From: a virus | Taxonomy: Duplodnaviria; Heunggongvirae; Uroviricota; Caudoviricetes | Length of the DNA: 26,266 bases | Strand: one strand, 5' to 3' | Virus record (IMG/VR): IMGVR_UViG_2563366988_000001 | Shown: in pieces, positions 4,691 to 18,826 of the stretch | How positions within the stretch are numbered: the stretch's first letter is position 1 | How the letters are laid out: each line of letters opens with the position of its first letter | Notes under the pieces: generated by a model | What the model saw: the letters and a program-made list of their open reading frames with translations, nothing else | Told to the model about the DNA's origin: nothing | Database searches by the model: none | Program-made: the position numbers and the translations under genes

Positions 4691-5113
4691 ATGTTCCTGA
4701 AAACCGAATCATTTGAACATAACGGTGTGACCGTCACGCTTTCTGAACTGTCAGCCCTGCAGCGTATTGAGCATCTCGCCCTGATGAAACGGCAGGCAGA
4801 ACAGGCGGAGTCAGACAGCAACCGGAAGTTTACTGTGGAAGACGCCATCAGAACCGGTGCTTTTGTGGTGGCGATGTCCCTGTGGCATAACCATCCGCAG
4901 AAGACAAAGCTGCCTTCCATGAATGAAGCCGTTAAACAGATTGAGCAGGAAGTGCTTACCACCTGGCCCACGGAGGCAATTTCTCATGCTGAAAACGTGG
5001 TGTACCGGCTGTCCGGTATGTATGAGTTTGTGGTGAATGATGCCCCTGAACAGGCAGAGGACTCCGGGCCTGCAGAGCCTGTTTCTGCGGGAAAGCGTTC
5101 GACGGTGAGCTGA
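4691..5113 (+). CDS. G: Tail assembly chaperone G
   Basis: 140 aa MFLKTESFEHNGVTVTLSELSALQRIEHLALMKRQAEQ... matches lambda gpG. Confidence 0.93.
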   Translation: MFLKTESFEHNGVTVTLSELSALQRIEHLALMKRQAEQAESDSNRKFTVEDAIRTGAFVVAMSLWHNHPQKTKLPSMNEAVKQIEQEVLTTWPTEAISHAENVVYRLSGMYEFVVNDAPEQAEDSGPAEPVSAGKRSTVS

Positions 5114-5529
5114 GTTTTGCCCTGAAACTGGCGCGTGAGATGGGGCGACCCGACTGGCGTGCCATGCTTGCCGGGATGTCATCCACGGAGTATGCCGACT
5201 GGCACCGCTTTTACAGTACCCATTATTTTCATGATGTTCTGCTGGATATGCACTTTTCCGGGCTGACGTACACCGTGCTCAGCCTGTTTTTCAGCGATCC
5301 GGATATGCATCCGCTGGATTTCAGTCTGCTGAACCGGCGCGAGGCTGACGAAGAGCCTGAAGATGATGTGCTGATGCAGAAAGCGGCAGGGCTTGCCGGA
5401 GGTGTCCGCTTTGGCCCGGACGGGAATGAAGTTATCCCTACTTCCACGGATGTGGCGGACATGACGGAGGATGACGTAATGCTGATGACAGTATCAGAAG
5501 GGATCGCAGGAGGAGTCCGGTATGGCTGA
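4691..5529 (+). CDS. G-T: Tail assembly chaperone G-T fusion made by programmed -1 ribosomal frameshift
   Basis: Slippery heptamer G GGA AAG at 5089-5095 in the G frame; the -1 frame is open from there to the stop at 5527-5529 and encodes lambda gpT-like sequence (ORF 5140..5529). Confidence 0.85.
5089..5095 (+). promoter_or_regulatory. -1 frameshift slippery site GGGAAAG (G to G-T)
   Basis: Heptamer positioned X XXY YYZ relative to the G reading frame; conserved mechanism in lambda-like tail chaperone genes. Confidence 0.85.
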
Positions 5530-14543: not shown

Positions 14544-14571
14544 AGCCCGCCGGTTCAGGCGGGCTTTTTTG
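14544..14571 (+). terminator. Intrinsic terminator after lom (AGCCCGCC-ggttca-GGCGGGCT then TTTTTT)
   Basis: 8-bp perfect GC-rich stem followed by a T-run. Confidence 0.7.
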
Positions 14572-14581
14572 TGGAGTGGAT

Positions 14582-16957
14582 ATGGCAGCAGTAAAAATCT
14601 CAGGTGTGCTGAAAGATGGTGCGGGAAAACCAATACAGAACTGCACTATTCAACTGAAGGCAAAGCGTAACAGCACCACGGTACTGGTGAACACGGTGGC
14701 TTCTGAAAATCCGGATGAAGCCGGACGTTACAGCATGGATGTTGAGTATGGCCAGTACAGCGTCACCCTGCTGGTTGAAGGTTTTCCGCCTTCACATGCC
14801 GGGACCATTACCGTCTATGAAGGCTCCAGACCAGGTACGCTGAATGATTTTCTCGGTGCCATGACGGAAGATGATGTCATGCCGGAGGCATTGCGTCGTT
14901 TTGAGGAAATGGTGGAAGAAGCGGCACGCAACGCTGAAGCCGCCTCTCAGAGCGCAGCGGCGGCAAAGAAATCCGAAACTGCAGCGGCATCATCGAAGAA
15001 CGCGGCGAAAACCTCAGAAACGAATGCAGCTAATAGTGCACAGGCGGCAGCGACCTCAAAGACTGCATCGGCAAACTCCGCGACAGCAGCCAAAAAATCA
15101 GAAACCAACGCGAAAAATAGCGAGACAGCCGCAAAGACGAGCGAAACCAACGCAAAGTCCAGCCAGACGGCAGCGAAAACCAGCGAAACGAATGCCAAAG
15201 CCAGTGAAACTGCGGCAAAAAACAGCCAGGTTGCAGCAGCCCAAATCGAGAGCGCGGCAGCCGGTTCTGCGACTTCAGCAGCTGGATCAGCAACTGCTGC
15301 GGCTAACAGCCAGAAAGCTGCGAAGACGAGTGAAACTAACGCAAAGTTCAGCCAGACGGCAGCGAAGACCAGCGAAACGAATGCCAAAGCCAGCGAAACT
15401 GCGGCGAAAAACAGTCAGGATGCAGCAGCCCAAAGCGAGAGTGCTGCAGCTGGTTCTGCAAGCGCGGCGGCTGCTTCTGCCACTGCATCAGCCAACAGTC
15501 AAAAAGCAGCAAAAACCAGTGAAACCAATGCAAAGACAAGCGAGACTGCAGCGGCGAACTCGGCGAAAGCATCGGCAGCAAGCCAGACAGCAGCTAAAGC
15601 AAGTGAAGACGCAGCCAGAGAGTATGCAAGTCAGGCAGCAGAGCCGTATAAATATGTCTTACAGCCGCTGCCTGATGTGTGGATACCATTTAACGATTCG
15701 CTGGATATGATTACGGGCTTTTCGCCATCATATAAAAAAATTGTTATTGGTGACGATGAAATAACGATGCCTGGCGACAAGATTGTTAAGTTTAAACGTG
15801 CATCGAAAGCAACCTATATTAACAAATCTGGTGTGCTGACAGAGGCTGCCATTGACGAGCCACGATTTGAACGTGATGGCCTGCTTATTGAGGGGCAAAG
15901 AACAAACTACATGCTCAATTCGGAAAGCCCTGCAAGTTGGGGGCGATCATCAAATATGGATGTGCCCGAAACAGGGACGGATAATTTTGGTTTTACCTAT
16001 GGAAAGTTTGTCTGCAACGATTCTCTGATTGGGCAAACCTCAGCCATTAATATGGCATCAATTGCTGCAACAAAGTCAGTTGATGTCTCAGGCGATAATA
16101 AACACGTGACAACCTCATGTCGTTTTAAAACAGAACTGCAGGTAAGGTTGCGTATCCGGTTTGATAAATATGACGGTAGCACAACAACTTTTCTTGGTGA
16201 TGCGTATATTGATACACAAACGCTTGAAATTAATATGACAGGCGGTGCTGCCTCAAGAATTACAGCGAGAGTCAGAAAGGACGAAGCTACCGGATGGATT
16301 TTTGCAGAGGCAACAATTCAGGCAATTGATGGGGAGTTAAAAATAGGCTCTCAGATACAGTATTCTCCTAAGCAGAGCGGGGCAACCGTATCTGGTGACT
16401 ATATTTATCTGGCCACCCCACAAGTAGAAGATGGGCCTTGTGTATCATCTTTTATTATATCAGGAGCGACGGCGGCGACCCGCGCAAGCGATATAGTTAC
16501 AGTTCCAATTAAGAATAATCTTTATAATCTTCCTTTTACGGTTCTTTGTGAGGTACATAAGAACTGGTATAAAACGCCAAATGCAGCGCCACGTGTTTTT
16601 GATACCGGCGGTCATCAAACCGGAGCGGCTATTATTCTTGGCTTCGGTCGTTCAACAGATTACGACGGATTTCCTTATTGCGATATTGGAGGAGCTAACA
16701 GACGGGTAAACGAAAACGCATCGCTTGAAAAAATGGTTATGGGGATGCGTGTAAAGTCAGAGCAGTCTACGTGCTCAGTAAGTAACGGGCATATATCCAG
16801 CGAAACAAAAACCACATGGTCCTGTATTCAGAACACCGCAATTATCCGTATTGGAGGCCAGACTACAGCCGGGTTACGTCATTTATTTGGTCATGTCAGG
16901 AATTTTAGAATATGGCACAAGGCATTGACTGATGCTCAGGTGGGGGAGTCAATCTAA
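14582..16957 (+). CDS. stf: Side tail fibre protein (lambda Stf-like N-terminal half with alanine-rich repeats; divergent lower-GC C-terminal receptor-binding region with LamG-like features)
   Basis: N-terminus MAAVKISGVLKDGAGKPIQNCTIQLKAKRNSTT matches lambda Stf; AAKTSETNAK-type repeats; base composition visibly drops from about 15650; C-terminal ...RHLFGHVRNFRIWHKALTDAQV resembles a LamG-like jelly-roll tail. Confidence 0.88.
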   Translation: MAAVKISGVLKDGAGKPIQNCTIQLKAKRNSTTVLVNTVASENPDEAGRYSMDVEYGQYSVTLLVEGFPPSHAGTITVYEGSRPGTLNDFLGAMTEDDVMPEALRRFEEMVEEAARNAEAASQSAAAAKKSETAAASSKNAAKTSETNAANSAQAAATSKTASANSATAAKKSETNAKNSETAAKTSETNAKSSQTAAKTSETNAKASETAAKNSQVAAAQIESAAAGSATSAAGSATAAANSQKAAKTSETNAKFSQTAAKTSETNAKASETAAKNSQDAAAQSESAAAGSASAAAASATASANSQKAAKTSETNAKTSETAAANSAKASAASQTAAKASEDAAREYASQAAEPYKYVLQPLPDVWIPFNDSLDMITGFSPSYKKIVIGDDEITMPGDKIVKFKRASKATYINKSGVLTEAAIDEPRFERDGLLIEGQRTNYMLNSESPASWGRSSNMDVPETGTDNFGFTYGKFVCNDSLIGQTSAINMASIAATKSVDVSGDNKHVTTSCRFKTELQVRLRIRFDKYDGSTTTFLGDAYIDTQTLEINMTGGAASRITARVRKDEATGWIFAEATIQAIDGELKIGSQIQYSPKQSGATVSGDYIYLATPQVEDGPCVSSFIISGATAATRASDIVTVPIKNNLYNLPFTVLCEVHKNWYKTPNAAPRVFDTGGHQTGAAIILGFGRSTDYDGFPYCDIGGANRRVNENASLEKMVMGMRVKSEQSTCSVSNGHISSETKTTWSCIQNTAIIRIGGQTTAGLRHLFGHVRNFRIWHKALTDAQVGESI
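15161..15538 (+). repeat. Tandem direct repeat, 2 x 189 bp (63-aa unit), inside stf
   Basis: Unit 1 at 15161-15349 and unit 2 at 15350-15538 encode SQTAAKTSETNAKASETAAKNSQ[V/D]AAAQ[I/S]ESAAAGSA... with few substitutions; shorter 13-14 aa sub-repeats on either side. Confidence 0.85.
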
Positions 16958-17238
16958 TGAAAGATTTAACACTCAAATTTGCCGACAGGGCCGACTTTTC
17001 GGCCTTTATGGAGAGTATTGGCTATTATGATGACGAGTCGATGCAGGATGATATTCTTATTGACGTGATAGGTAACGCGTACAAAGAAACCGGAGAACTG
17101 ACTGAAGATGGCGAACCGGTATGTGTTAAGGAAGACGGATATTTTGTAAACGTGCGCATCATTAATGATTCGCAAATATCGTCATTATTCGATGAATACG
17201 TGGTTGCTGTTGAGCATCAACTTCGTGGCTGGATGTGA
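16957..17238 (+). CDS. Hypothetical acidic 93-aa protein, translationally coupled to stf; possible fibre chaperone
   Basis: ATG overlaps the stf stop (TAATG); no homolog recognised from memory; lower-GC segment. Confidence 0.6.
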   Translation: MKDLTLKFADRADFSAFMESIGYYDDESMQDDILIDVIGNAYKETGELTEDGEPVCVKEDGYFVNVRIINDSQISSLFDEYVVAVEHQLRGWM

Positions 17239-17247
17239 GGAAGAAAA

Positions 17248-18285
17248 ATGGCTACATCGACAGTAATTCCTGATGACATCAAAACGCTAAAATCCGACGT
17301 TAGCAAATTAAAAAACGATCAAGGAAGCTACGCAACAAAATTATATGTAGACAGCAAAGATGAAATCGTTGGTGACTGGTCTGCTTCATGGTATCAGCAG
17401 GTATTGCCAACTAGCGGAGCTATATTTGGGAGAAAACTCCGCTCAACTCACAGGACGGCAGGTGTTGAGGATGCGTATTGCGAACTATACCTCAAAAAAT
17501 GGATAGACAGTCCAGGTAACGCAATGGCGCGCCTTAACCTGAACGATAACGGGACAAACATTTGCTGGGACTCTACCAACCTTTATGGCGGTACGATGAT
17601 TTTTCCCGGTGACAGCGGATACCTCAAAATGGGTAACTGCCTTATGTCATACAGCAAGCGTGGAAGTAACGCGCTTATTAAATTTGATTACACCGACACA
17701 TTACAGATCAAATATGCCAATCATGGGTCAACCATGACATTAAACACACAGGGAACCGCTTATGCTGGTGTTACTGCTCAATTGTGGGGCAACTCCAGCC
17801 GTCCTGTTGTTTATGAAGTCGGTGTTGATGGTGGCGCTTATATGTTCTATGCGCAGAAAAATACCGATAACACCTATATGTTAAGCGTTAATGGTGCATG
17901 TCATGCCACCACATTTAACCAGCATTCCGACCGGGATCTGAAAGACAACATTCAGGTGATCGATAATGCAACCGACCGCATCCGTAAAATGAACGGCTAT
18001 ACATACACGCTTAAAGAAAACGGTATCCCCTATGCTGGTGTCATTGCACAGGAAGCTCTGGAAGCAATCCCAGAAGTTGTAGGTTCCGCAATGAAATATC
18101 AGGACGGTGCAAGCGGATCGGAAGGTGAAGAAGGTGAACGTTATTACACAGTAGATTATTCTGGTGTTACTGGCTTGCTTGTTCAGGTAGCCAGAGAGTC
18201 AGACGACAGGATAACAGCACTGGAAGAAGAAAACGCAGAATTAAGACAAAGATTATCTGCAATTGAGGCGGCGCTTGCGTCTTAA
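17248..18285 (+). CDS. Tail fibre/spike protein with C-terminal peptidase S74 intramolecular chaperone domain
   Basis: C-terminal motif HSDRDLKDNIQVIDNATDRIRKMNGYTYTLKENGIPYAGVIAQEALEAIPEVV matches the self-cleaving chaperone domain of endosialidases and T5 pb1 (Ser...Lys dyad, SDRxLK), followed by a coiled-coil tail. Confidence 0.8.
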   Translation: MATSTVIPDDIKTLKSDVSKLKNDQGSYATKLYVDSKDEIVGDWSASWYQQVLPTSGAIFGRKLRSTHRTAGVEDAYCELYLKKWIDSPGNAMARLNLNDNGTNICWDSTNLYGGTMIFPGDSGYLKMGNCLMSYSKRGSNALIKFDYTDTLQIKYANHGSTMTLNTQGTAYAGVTAQLWGNSSRPVVYEVGVDGGAYMFYAQKNTDNTYMLSVNGACHATTFNQHSDRDLKDNIQVIDNATDRIRKMNGYTYTLKENGIPYAGVIAQEALEAIPEVVGSAMKYQDGASGSEGEEGERYYTVDYSGVTGLLVQVARESDDRITALEEENAELRQRLSAIEAALAS

Positions 18286-18294
18286 TAATATTAA

Positions 18295-18317
18295 GGGGTC
18301 GAGCGCCCCGTTTTATT
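18295..18317 (+). terminator. Weak terminator-like hairpin (GGGGtcgagcGCCCC) plus GTTTTATT after the S74 fibre gene
   Basis: Short GC stem and T-run; overlaps the approach to the next gene's RBS. Confidence 0.3.
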
Positions 18318-18330
18318 GGGTAGGATGAAA

Positions 18331-18624
18331 ATGGATATAACACCTTTCCTTCATGCGCTTTGTGCTGTGGCTGCGCAGCTACTGATTGGTCTTTTTACCG
18401 GGAACTGGGCTTACGGGGCGATAGCCGGTTGTACGTTCTTCATTGCGCGTGAACACACCCAGGCAGAATATCGCTGGATTGAAATGTTCGGGCATGGCAA
18501 GCGAATGAATATGCCGTGGTGGGGCGGTTTTGATCCGCGCGCGTGGGATGTAGCAAGTCTGATGGATTTTGCTGTGCCGGTGGTGGCGTGTCTGCTGGTC
18601 TGGCTGTTGGTTAATCGTGGGTGA
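18331..18624 (+). CDS. Small integral membrane protein (about 97 aa, three predicted TM segments), unknown function
   Basis: ATG at 18331 with AGGA at 18322-18325; the ORF-track frame opens at 18316 (TTG). Hydrophobic stretches FLHALCAVAAQLLIGLF, AYGAIAGCTFFIA, FAVPVVACLLVWLLV. Confidence 0.6.
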   Translation: MDITPFLHALCAVAAQLLIGLFTGNWAYGAIAGCTFFIAREHTQAEYRWIEMFGHGKRMNMPWWGGFDPRAWDVASLMDFAVPVVACLLVWLLVNRG

Positions 18625-18634
18625 AAAAAGGTGA

Positions 18635-18763
18635 GCTGTATATGCAACGGAGGAAGAAACCTCGTTGCTGGAAGCCTGGAAGAAGTATCGGGTGTTGCTG
18701 AACCGTGTTGATACATCAACTGCACCTGATATTGAGTGGCCTACGAACCCTGTCAGGGAGTAA
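18635..18763 (+). pseudogene. tfa: Tail fibre assembly protein Tfa, 3' remnant (last about 40 codons, no start codon)
   Basis: Frame encodes ...[39 protein letters not shown], matching the lambda Tfa C-terminus; in-frame TGA immediately upstream at 18632-18634. Confidence 0.8.
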
Positions 18764-18777
18764 TCATTGGGATTATG

Positions 18778-18826
18778 CCGCAGCACGTCTTAAGCAAGAA
18801 CGTGCTGCGGTTGGATGCTATTTTTT
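18778..18826. terminator. Hairpin (CCGCAGCACGT-loop-ACGTGCTGCGG) plus T-run between convergent tfa remnant and methyltransferase gene; candidate bidirectional terminator
   Basis: 11-bp stem at 18778-18788 / 18800-18810, then TATTTTTT at 18819-18826; a second copy at 26089-26123 carries compensatory changes. Confidence 0.5.

What the first reader, a model, noticed from the sequence alone, without database searches (positions are those of the whole stretch)
17248..18285. Second, short tail fibre with peptidase S74 intramolecular chaperone domain in a lambda-type tail gene set
The C-terminus carries the conserved SDRDLKDNIQ...GYTYTLKENGIPYAGVIAQE block characteristic of the self-cleaving chaperone domain (cleavage before the Ser, with a Ser/Lys dyad 5 residues apart). 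The mature product would be only about 235 aa. Lambda itself has no such protein, so this phage may carry two different receptor-binding fibres (Stf-like plus an S74-matured fibre), implying dual adhesins or a branched fibre.
Basis: partly seen in the sequence, partly recalled or inferred. Interest (0 to 1): 0.45.

Follow-up and report, generated by a model that had tools for sequence, protein, structure and literature searches.

The report
Add-on tip of lambdoid side fibre
This gene encodes a short, probably self-trimming tail-fibre protein that most likely plugs onto the phage's main side tail fibre as an exchangeable second host-binding part, a module already common and annotated in E. coli phages, so it is ordinary.

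Summary
ORF 17248-18285 (+) encodes 345 aa with a clear Peptidase_S74 intramolecular-chaperone domain (PF13884, E=7e-14, residues 227-278). The SDRDLK Ser227/Lys232 pair is invariant in homologues. Cleavage would leave 226 aa (24.9 kDa), not about 235.

It is not an isolated oddity. It is the third gene of a compact three-gene side-fibre cassette:
- a proximal Stf-like fibre with a galectin-like C-terminal domain;
- a 93-aa protein;
- this short distal fibre.

The same cassette occurs in lambdoid, T1-like, T5-like, 9g-like and Dhillonvirus phages, whose fibres start with different N-terminal anchors. Distal proteins that are otherwise unrelated all share only the first ~16 residues (M-A/V-T-x-T-x-I-P-x-D-I-x-x-L-K). 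In 78 of 78 prophage loci with this small-protein allele, such an ORF follows directly. A sister lambdoid haplotype lacks it (46 of 47).

This argues that the protein docks on the Stf or the small protein as an optional, swappable second receptor-binding module, rather than being a separate fibre on the tail. AlphaFold-Multimer work on the homologous T5-like phage IrisVonRoten (PLoS Biol 2025) predicted this architecture.

The protein is 100% identical to an annotated tail fibre of phage 2G7b, and near-full-length copies sit in about 430 of 5426 complete E. coli genomes. Attachment and processing remain untested. Low interest.

The parts
14582..16957 (+). Proximal side tail fibre (Stf-like, 791-793 aa). 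It has an N-terminal phage_tail_N anchor, an Ala/Ser/Thr-rich repeat shaft, a highly conserved junction (QPLPDVWIPFNDSLDM..., from residue 363) and a ~430-aa C-terminal galectin-like / 'head spike fibre' domain. It has no S74 domain.
   Evidence: PF08400 E=7e-67. NF048003 GTA_spike_fiber E=4e-13 at residues 437-637. The C-terminal half is shared with the fibres of JenP1, a T5-like contig, T1-like contigs and IrisVonRoten Gp22, while the N-termini differ. The RefSeq start corresponds to window 14582.
16957..17238 (+). 93-aa protein of unknown role (phrog_1361). Its start overlaps the Stf stop. It is a candidate assembly factor or connector of the cassette.
17237..17243 (+). Ribosome-binding site (GAGGAAG) of the S74 fibre gene
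   Evidence: Read directly from the sequence.
17248..17322 (+). Residues 1-25: conserved N-terminal peptide (MATSTVIPDDIKTLKSDVSKLKNDQ). This is the inferred docking element, followed by a short predicted helix.
   Evidence: It is the only segment shared with IrisVonRoten Gp24, tonn gp60, the BL21 234-aa allele and KarlBarth gp30. Residues 1-15 are 66-72% identical even in 40%-identity homologues. Helix 9-29 appears in the model.
17248..17925 (+). Predicted mature fibre polypeptide, residues 1-226 (24.9 kDa). It has a variable beta-rich region (31-165), then a T4 gp34-like fibre repeat (175-224).
17926..18282 (+). C-terminal S74 intramolecular chaperone domain, residues 227-345, with Ser227/Lys232 and a terminal helix (305-344). 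It is predicted to be cut off after trimer folding.
   Evidence: PF13884 E=7e-14. Ser227 and Lys232 are invariant. Profile hits to the S16 gp37 chaperone 6f45 (E=4e-8) and the MYRF ICA domain 7dc3 (E=2e-3). Helix.
18295..18319 (+). Terminator-like hairpin (GGGGTCGAGCGCCCC) plus T-run, 10 nt after the stop codon; it closes the three-gene block
   Evidence: A matching hairpin at 14544-14565 precedes the Stf gene. The number of such sites in the region is not above shuffles, so the evidence is positional only.

Best explanation
ORF 17248-18285 encodes the distal, exchangeable subunit of a multi-protein side (lateral) tail fibre.

Shown:
- It is a 345-aa tail-fibre protein under purifying selection.
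- It has a bona fide C-terminal S74 intramolecular-chaperone domain with an invariant Ser227/Lys232 dyad.
- It is the last gene of a tightly packed Stf / 93-aa / fibre cassette that is shared, as a cassette, by five siphovirus groups.

Inferred:
- Three chains fold into a short trimer, templated by the C-terminal chaperone.
- Once the trimer is correct, each chain cuts itself before Ser227. This releases the 13-kDa chaperone and exposes the tip of a 226-residue mature fibre.
- The conserved N-terminal ~16-25 residues fasten this short fibre to the C-terminal region of the proximal Stf-like fibre and/or to the 93-aa protein.
- Each side fibre then carries two binding modules: the galectin-like domain of Stf and the variable beta-rich part of the short fibre.
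- The likely targets are surface glycans such as O-antigen, by analogy with other lateral fibres.
- The distal subunit is optional and swappable. The same slot holds alleles of 346, 234, 224, 574 and 98 aa, and one lambdoid haplotype has none.
For: S74 membership:
- PF13884 E=7e-14.
- The dyad is invariant in 29 sequences.
- Profile hits to the S16 gp37 chaperone and MYRF ICA.
- The mechanism and cleavage position follow T5 pb1.

Tail-fibre identity:
- Full-length phrog_4563 'tail fiber protein', E=2e-217.
- T4 gp34 repeat.

Real gene:
- dN/dS is 0.12-0.44.
- It has its own RBS.
- Full-length orthologues occur in lytic phages.

Cassette conservation:
- JenP1 and ESCO3.
- A T5-like contig, located after pb4 and LtfC.
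- T1-like contigs, located between primase and Erf.
- IrisVonRoten Gp22-24.
- KarlBarth.
- The proximal fibres share only their C-terminal ~430 aa; their N-termini are lineage-specific.

Docking peptide:
- Only the first ~16 residues are shared among otherwise unrelated distal proteins.

Linkage:
- 78 of 78 evaluable prophage loci with the window-type small protein have a motif-bearing ORF within 60 nt downstream.
- 46 of 47 loci with the ev207-type small protein go straight to the membrane-protein gene.
- ev207 Stf is 83% identical to the window Stf.

Published precedents:
- AlphaFold-Multimer models place IrisVonRoten Gp24 on the proximal fibre Gp22, whose galectin-like domain is proposed as an extra binding domain (PMC11990801).
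- Branched lateral fibres are genetically established in DT57C (PMC4728585 and PMC10713586).
Against: - No direct evidence of attachment, processing or virion incorporation exists for this protein or any close homologue.
- I could not run a multimer prediction.
- A suspected docking segment in Stf co-varied with the distal type in 12 loci, but this did not hold in 90 loci.
- The perfect association of small-protein allele with distal gene may only reflect two clonal haplotypes.
- The role of the 93-aa protein is unresolved: it persists where no distal gene exists, and its fold gives no clue.
- The receptor is unknown.
Confidence: 0.7

Rival explanations
1. It is an independent second fibre. 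The short S74-matured trimer binds directly to the tail tip or baseplate (J, L or another protein), separately from Stf.
For: It is a separate gene with its own RBS. Some phages do carry separate short and long fibres (PMC11990801).
Against: It has no recognisable tail-attachment domain: the only Pfam hit is S74. The same N-terminal peptide is used in lambdoid, T1-like, T5-like, 9g-like and Dhillonvirus phages, whose fibres start with different N-terminal anchors. The only partners conserved alongside it at this locus are the proximal-fibre C-terminal domain and the ~92-aa protein. It never occurred without them in the loci examined.
Confidence: 0.1
2. It is a trans-acting assembly factor. The protein, or its S74 domain, acts as a chaperone or cap for folding of the Stf galectin-like tip and is not retained in the virion. 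Some records annotate homologues as 'endosialidase chaperone' or 'putative lateral tail fiber chaperone'.
For: Those annotations appear in ESCO3 and KurtStettler. The cassette has no Tfa gene, only Tfa pseudogene remnants downstream.
Against: In T5 pb1 the S74 chaperone is part of the chain it folds and is cut off that same chain. From my own knowledge, not checked here, the same holds for the K1F endosialidase and the GA-1/phi29 appendages. The 226-residue N-terminal part is fibre-like, hypervariable in its middle like a receptor-binding domain, and carries a T4 gp34 fibre repeat. ev207-type phages keep an 83%-identical Stf without this gene, so Stf does not need it. The 93-aa protein is the better chaperone candidate.
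Confidence: 0.08
3. It is an inert recombination leftover: a C-terminal fragment of a once longer S74-ended Stf (as in phrog_6578, 1210 aa) that happens to keep an ATG.
For: Both the Stf N-terminus and the C-terminal 210 residues of this protein match the single-chain family phrog_6578. Tfa pseudogene scars lie just downstream. Truncated copies exist: 254, 294 and 194 aa.
Against: Full-length 345-351-aa orthologues with the same start occur in lytic phages. dN/dS is well below 1. The N-terminal peptide is conserved and specific. A full-length PHROG family matches.
Confidence: 0.03

Closest known systems
Lateral tail fibre Gp22-Gp23-Gp24 of Tequintavirus IrisVonRoten (Bas32), modelled in PLoS Biol 2025 (PMC11990801)
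   Same: It is a homologous three-gene cassette. The proximal fibre has the same junction and galectin-like C-terminal domain (53% identity over 744 aa). The ~92-aa middle protein is 39% identical (E=3e-26). The distal protein starts with the same peptide (MVTKTVIPTDITKLK against MATSTVIPDDIKTLK) and ends in a PF13884 domain. The published models attach the distal fibre to the proximal fibre.
   Different: Gp24 is 574 aa and T-shaped, with a Gp12-like domain plus a T5-like domain. The window protein is 229 aa shorter and shares no detectable similarity between the N-terminal peptide and the chaperone region. The proximal anchor there is T5 LtfA-type; here it is lambda phage_tail_N. The host phage here is temperate.
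Branched L-shaped tail fibres LtfA/LtfB of T5-like phages DT57C and DT571/2 (PMC4728585; PMC10713586)
   Same: The working principle matches: a second fibre protein with its own receptor specificity and its own S74 chaperone rides on the first fibre rather than on the tail.
   Different: There is no homology in the docking parts. The LtfB N-terminus (MSRPLMPKSG...) is unrelated, and LtfA/LtfB give only marginal matches to the window proteins. In DT57C both subunits end in S74; here Stf has none. DT57C has no ~92-aa middle gene.
T5 pb1 L-shaped fibre and other S74 intramolecular-chaperone proteins (K1F endosialidase, GA-1/phi29 appendages, S16/T2-type gp37, eukaryotic MYRF)
   Same: It has a C-terminal PF13884 domain, a Ser/Lys dyad five residues apart, and predicted self-cleavage before the Ser once the trimer is folded.
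Phage lambda Stf/Tfa side tail fibre
   Same: It occupies the same genomic position after J and lom, and the Stf N-terminal domain is the same.
   Different: The C-terminal half of Stf is replaced, and no functional Tfa is present; only remnants remain. Two extra genes, the 93-aa protein and the S74 fibre, take its place.

Membership tests
Peptidase S74 / intramolecular chaperone domain (PF13884) | Match to the family HMM above the curated threshold | tested here: met
   E=7e-14, 52.3 bits against a cut-off of 22, model positions 1-57 of 58.
Peptidase S74 / intramolecular chaperone domain (PF13884) | Catalytic Ser and Lys five residues apart (S-D-x-x-x-K) at the start of the domain | tested here: met
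   Ser227 and Lys232 in SDRDLK, invariant in 29 homologues. This matches T5 Ser1264/Lys1269.
Peptidase S74 / intramolecular chaperone domain (PF13884) | C-terminal location, ending in a helix able to form a trimeric coiled coil, downstream of a trimeric fibre or beta-helix domain | tested here: met
   The domain spans 227-345 and is the C-terminus. Helix 305-344 appears in the model. A T4 gp34 fibre repeat lies directly upstream at 175-224. The trimeric state itself was not modelled.
Peptidase S74 / intramolecular chaperone domain (PF13884) | Autoproteolytic release of the domain | not testable with these tools
   Needs protein expression, or mass spectrometry of virions plus an S227A mutant.
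IrisVonRoten-type two-part lateral fibre cassette (proximal galectin-type fibre + ~92-aa protein + distal S74 fibre) | Proximal fibre with the conserved QPLPDVW junction and galectin-like C-terminal domain | tested here: met
   NF048003 hit.
IrisVonRoten-type two-part lateral fibre cassette (proximal galectin-type fibre + ~92-aa protein + distal S74 fibre) | Homologous ~92-aa gene between the two fibre genes | tested here: met
   39% identity, E=3e-26 to bas32_0023; alignment A4.
IrisVonRoten-type two-part lateral fibre cassette (proximal galectin-type fibre + ~92-aa protein + distal S74 fibre) | Distal protein with the shared N-terminal peptide and a C-terminal S74 domain | tested here: met
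IrisVonRoten-type two-part lateral fibre cassette (proximal galectin-type fibre + ~92-aa protein + distal S74 fibre) | T-shaped distal fibre with a Gp12-like first binding domain | tested here: not met
   No similarity outside the N-terminal peptide and chaperone region, and the protein is 229 aa shorter. The window protein is therefore a different, shorter allele of the distal slot.
IrisVonRoten-type two-part lateral fibre cassette (proximal galectin-type fibre + ~92-aa protein + distal S74 fibre) | Physical attachment of the distal fibre to the proximal fibre | not testable with these tools
   Only monomer prediction was available. Even in the literature this is a prediction (PMC11990801).
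DT57C LtfA/LtfB branched fibre | LtfB-type (phiEco32 gp15-like) N-terminal docking region and matching LtfA region | tested here: not met
   No similarity of the window proteins to the LtfB N-terminus or the LtfA docking region. It works alike but is not a member.
Lambda Stf/Tfa system | Tfa chaperone gene directly downstream of stf | tested here: not met
   Only N-terminally truncated or frameshifted tfa pseudogenes are annotated, in the 99.96%-identical RefSeq locus.

The most novel reading that the evidence does not exclude
The conserved N-terminal ~16-residue peptide, the ~92-aa protein and the conserved junction/galectin module of the proximal fibre together form a universal 'socket'. This socket would let lambdoid, T1-like, T5-like, 9g-like and Dhillonvirus phages, temperate and lytic alike, swap S74-matured distal receptor-binding fibres. 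The allele of the small protein would decide whether a distal fibre can be mounted at all: window-type alleles always have one, ev207-type alleles never do.
Probability: 0.3. Interest if true: 0.5.

Novelty: new member of a known kind. Interest (0 to 1): 0.25.

Why it matters
If the docking model is right, many E. coli lambdoid prophages carry two-headed side fibres. About 8% of complete genomes hold a near-full-length copy of this allele by megablast, and more hold the 234-aa allele. The outer head of such a fibre would be a small, self-contained, self-folding cassette. The 16-residue plug and the S74 chaperone would then form a natural plug-and-play unit for retargeting lambda-based delivery particles or phages without redesigning the whole Stf. 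This would also explain very recent fibre exchange between lytic and temperate coliphages. It does not reveal a new principle: S74 chaperones, branched lateral fibres and this particular cassette have all been described or predicted elsewhere.

Tried and rejected
1. Docking-site covariation. In 12 diverse loci a 30-residue Stf segment after QPLPDVWIPFNDSLDM seemed to track the distal-protein type. In 90 loci the same junction variant occurs with the 346-aa allele, the 234-aa allele and no distal gene. Rejected.
4. Homology to DT57C LtfA/LtfB docking regions: none.
5. NCBIfam gave nothing for the S74 protein, the 93-aa protein or the 102-aa protein. Single-sequence PDB search gave only S16 gp37 at E=1e-3.
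6. The search for related loci with the tonn small protein found nothing, and with the IrisVonRoten one only 3 loci. The large-sample statistics therefore come almost entirely from E. coli prophages and are phylogenetically non-independent.
7. Literature: the Hf4s preprint turned out to be irrelevant, as it is a P22-like phage. I found no virion proteomics for 9g-like homologues.
No multimer prediction was possible.

Full report
**1. Observation**

A GAGG ribosome-binding site lies 7 nt upstream, and the stop of the preceding gene is 9 nt upstream.

Pfam gives one hit, PF13884 Peptidase_S74 ('chaperone of endosialidase'). It scores E=7e-14 and 52.3 bits against a gathering score of 22, and covers residues 227-278 and model positions 1-57 of 58. 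SDRDLK begins at residue 227 and GYTYTLKENGIPYAGVIAQE spans 250-269.

In an alignment of 29 homologues down to 39% identity, Ser227, Asp228, Leu231 and Lys232 are invariant. A profile of the family also matches three solved proteins:
- the chaperone region of Salmonella phage S16 gp37 (6f45, E=4e-8);
- the MYRF ICA domain (7dc3, E=2e-3);
- a T4 gp34 fibre repeat, at residues 175-224 (E=4e-6).

Cleavage before Ser227 leaves 226 residues (24.9 kDa) and releases 119 residues (13.0 kDa), not about 235. In T5 pb1 the mature fibre ends at residue 1263. Ser1264 leaves with the chaperone, and Lys1269 activates it. The uncleaved protein does not compete for the receptor (PMC4690869).

**2. Where the window comes from**

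The region is 100% identical to Escherichia phage 2G7b (Nesevirus) gp22-gp25. There the gene is annotated 'tail fiber protein'.

It is 99.96% identical to a prophage beside ompT in E. coli FDAARGOS_1268. There PGAP calls it 'tail fiber domain-containing protein'.

The gene matches over at least 80% of its length in 431 of 5426 complete E. coli genomes. Its 90% cluster holds 2132 sequences. The whole protein matches phrog_4563 'tail fiber protein' end to end (E=2e-217). It is therefore a common, annotated gene.

**3. Gene context**

The upstream genes are a lambda-type tail set:
- J (1131 aa), with all its GpJ domains;
- lom;
- a 791-793-aa Stf-like protein with the PF08400 phage_tail_N anchor, a long Ala/Ser/Thr repeat shaft and a ~430-aa C-terminal domain that hits NCBIfam 'phage head spike fiber domain' (E=4e-13).

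The Stf stop overlaps the start of a 93-aa gene (phrog_1361, unknown function). The S74 gene follows 9 nt later. Terminator-like hairpins lie at 14544-14565 and 18295-18309. These are positional evidence only, because the count of such sites is not above shuffles.

There is no functional Tfa gene; only tfa pseudogene scars lie downstream.

**4. The same three-gene cassette occurs in unrelated siphoviruses**

| Phage group | Example | Arrangement |
|---|---|---|
| Nonagvirus | JenP1 gp23-25 | 45%, 46% and 68% identity to the three window proteins |
| Nonagvirus | ESCO3 | same cassette |
| T5-like | metagenomic contig | pb4, LtfC, then 783 + 92 + 326 aa |
| T1-like | contigs and phage tonn | between primase and Erf: about 650 + 92 + 224-338 aa |
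| Dhillonvirus | KarlBarth | same cassette, distal protein 98 aa |
| Tequintavirus | IrisVonRoten bas32_0022-24 | same cassette, distal protein 574 aa |

In an alignment of five of the large proteins (window, JenP1, the T5-like contig and two T1-like contigs), the N-termini are lineage-specific. From 'LQPLPDVWIPFNDSLDMITGFSPSYKKI...' onward the sequences are strongly conserved. IrisVonRoten Gp22 shows the same junction and C-terminal domain in a pairwise comparison, and the junction motif is also present in tonn, KarlBarth and BL21.

The third-gene products differ widely:
- 345-351 aa of the present type;
- a 574-aa T-shaped fibre in IrisVonRoten;
- 224- and 234-aa proteins that still carry a weaker PF13884 match;
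- a 98-aa protein in KarlBarth.

All of them begin M-(A/V)-T-x-T-x-I-P-x-D-I-x-x-L-K.

Within the family, residues 1-30 and the chaperone (226-330) are conserved. Residues 31-165 are hypervariable. This is the usual signature of anchor, receptor-binding part and chaperone. dN/dS is 0.12-0.44 wherever it can be measured.

**5. Linkage statistics**

I examined IMG/VR prophage loci retrieved with the small protein as query.
- Window-type small-protein allele: 78 of 78 evaluable loci have a motif-bearing ORF within 60 nt downstream. About half are the ~346-aa S74 allele and about 40% are the ~234-aa allele.
- ev207-type small-protein allele (53% identical): 46 of 47 evaluable loci go straight to the downstream membrane-protein gene.

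The ev207 Stf is 83% identical to the window Stf. The distal fibre is therefore an optional add-on to an otherwise complete Stf. These loci are closely related, so the association may reflect two haplotypes rather than independent events.

**6. Interpretation**

The protein has no attachment domain of its own. Its only conserved non-chaperone element is a short N-terminal peptide. This peptide is shared across phages whose fibres start with different N-terminal anchors. It is always accompanied by the same proximal-fibre C-terminal module and the ~92-aa protein.

The most economical reading is that the short trimer docks on that module. The result would be a branched or two-headed side fibre, with the galectin-like domain of Stf as one head and the variable part of the short fibre as the other.

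The BASEL-II paper predicts exactly this by AlphaFold-Multimer for the homologous IrisVonRoten Gp22/Gp24 pair. It also proposes the galectin-like domain as an additional binding domain (PMC11990801). The principle of a second S74-ended fibre riding on the first was established genetically for DT57C LtfA/LtfB (PMC4728585, PMC10713586).

The DT57C system is not homologous in its docking parts, and its LtfB N-terminus is unrelated. The present cassette works like it but is not a member.

The steps still inferred rather than shown are trimerisation, self-cleavage, attachment, virion incorporation and receptor.

**7. What did not work**

- The 93-aa protein models well (pLDDT 84.5) as a small alpha/beta fold but has no informative structural neighbour. 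I cannot say whether it is a chaperone for the galectin-like domain or a connector. It persists where the distal gene is absent, which favours an Stf-linked role.
- An apparent covariation between a Stf junction segment and the distal type (n=12) disappeared in 90 loci.

**8. Rival readings**

- An independently attached second fibre (0.10) conflicts with the cross-lineage sharing of the N-terminal peptide.
- A trans-acting chaperone (0.08) is suggested by some database annotations. It conflicts with the cis action shown for the T5 pb1 chaperone and, from my own knowledge, for other S74 domains. It also conflicts with the fibre-like, hypervariable N-terminal part, and with ev207-type phages keeping the same Stf without this gene.
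- A dead recombination remnant (0.03) conflicts with purifying selection and with full-length orthologues in lytic phages.

**9. Novelty and score**

The S74 domain, the protein family and the cassette architecture are all already in databases or the literature. S74-ended side fibres also occur as single chains in other lambdoids (phrog_6578; PhiR70_1).

What is modestly new is the recognition that many E. coli lambdoid prophages carry the IrisVonRoten-type two-part fibre with a minimal 226-residue distal head. Also new is the observation that a ~16-residue peptide marks an exchangeable slot across five siphovirus groups. This is a new member of a known kind, with interest about 0.25.

Noticed in passing
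window 20699-22652 (istA 20785-21807, istB 21804-22586); flanks 20025-20732 and 22596-23468 (- strand): An IS21-family element (rve transposase plus IstB ATPase) is inserted in an alpha/beta-hydrolase cargo gene. That gene is intact in phage 2G7b and in E. coli FDAARGOS_1268.
   Followed up: partly
window 25083-25820 (- strand); homology break at 25673: The prophage integrase ORF is cut short at its N-terminal end. Similarity to the 2G7b integrase stops at 25673, so this prophage copy may be unable to excise.
   Followed up: partly
window 25959-26266 versus about 18647-18954: The last 308 bases of the window match (96% identity) the stretch of phage 2G7b and of the FDAARGOS_1268 prophage that corresponds to window ~18647-18954, the tfa-remnant / methyltransferase-end region downstream of the fibre cassette. 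This suggests a second, adjacent lambdoid prophage end or a rearrangement.
   Followed up: partly
window 18644-18763 and 19636-19841: N-terminally truncated or frameshifted tfa (tail fibre assembly) pseudogenes and a DinI fragment are annotated in the 99.96%-identical RefSeq locus. They look like scars of a replaced lambda-type stf-tfa module.
   Followed up: no
window 17338-17607 (residues 31-120) versus L003 (Nonagvirus ESCO3): This block of the fibre gene has dS=0 between the temperate prophage and a lytic Nonagvirus, while the adjacent blocks have dS 0.4-0.75. This indicates very recent mosaic exchange between lytic and temperate phages.
   Followed up: partly
L020-L152 (IMG/VR prophage loci): The small-protein allele predicts the presence of a distal fibre gene almost perfectly: window-type 78/78 with one, ev207-type 46/47 without. 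A second common distal allele of ~234 aa has only a weak S74 match at 116-172, so its mature part would be about 115 residues.
   Followed up: yes
window 18316-18624 (+), probable start 18331: A ~97-aa predicted membrane protein (phrog_1443) directly follows the terminator-like hairpin. It is about 95-98% conserved in many lambdoids (ev207, phage 21, Lambda_2E9), whether or not the distal fibre gene is present. Its function is unknown.
   Followed up: no
window 18818-19486 (- strand) and 23655-24608 (- strand): Cargo genes lie at the prophage arm: a class I SAM-dependent methyltransferase and an OmpT-family outer-membrane protease.
   Followed up: no
L017 (Vequintavirus EmilHeitz) 5001-5333: A longer (110-aa) homologue of the 93-aa protein follows a 1478-aa lateral fibre in rV5-like myoviruses. 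The next gene lacks the N-terminal docking motif, so the small protein tracks the proximal-fibre C-terminal domain rather than the distal fibre.
   Followed up: partly
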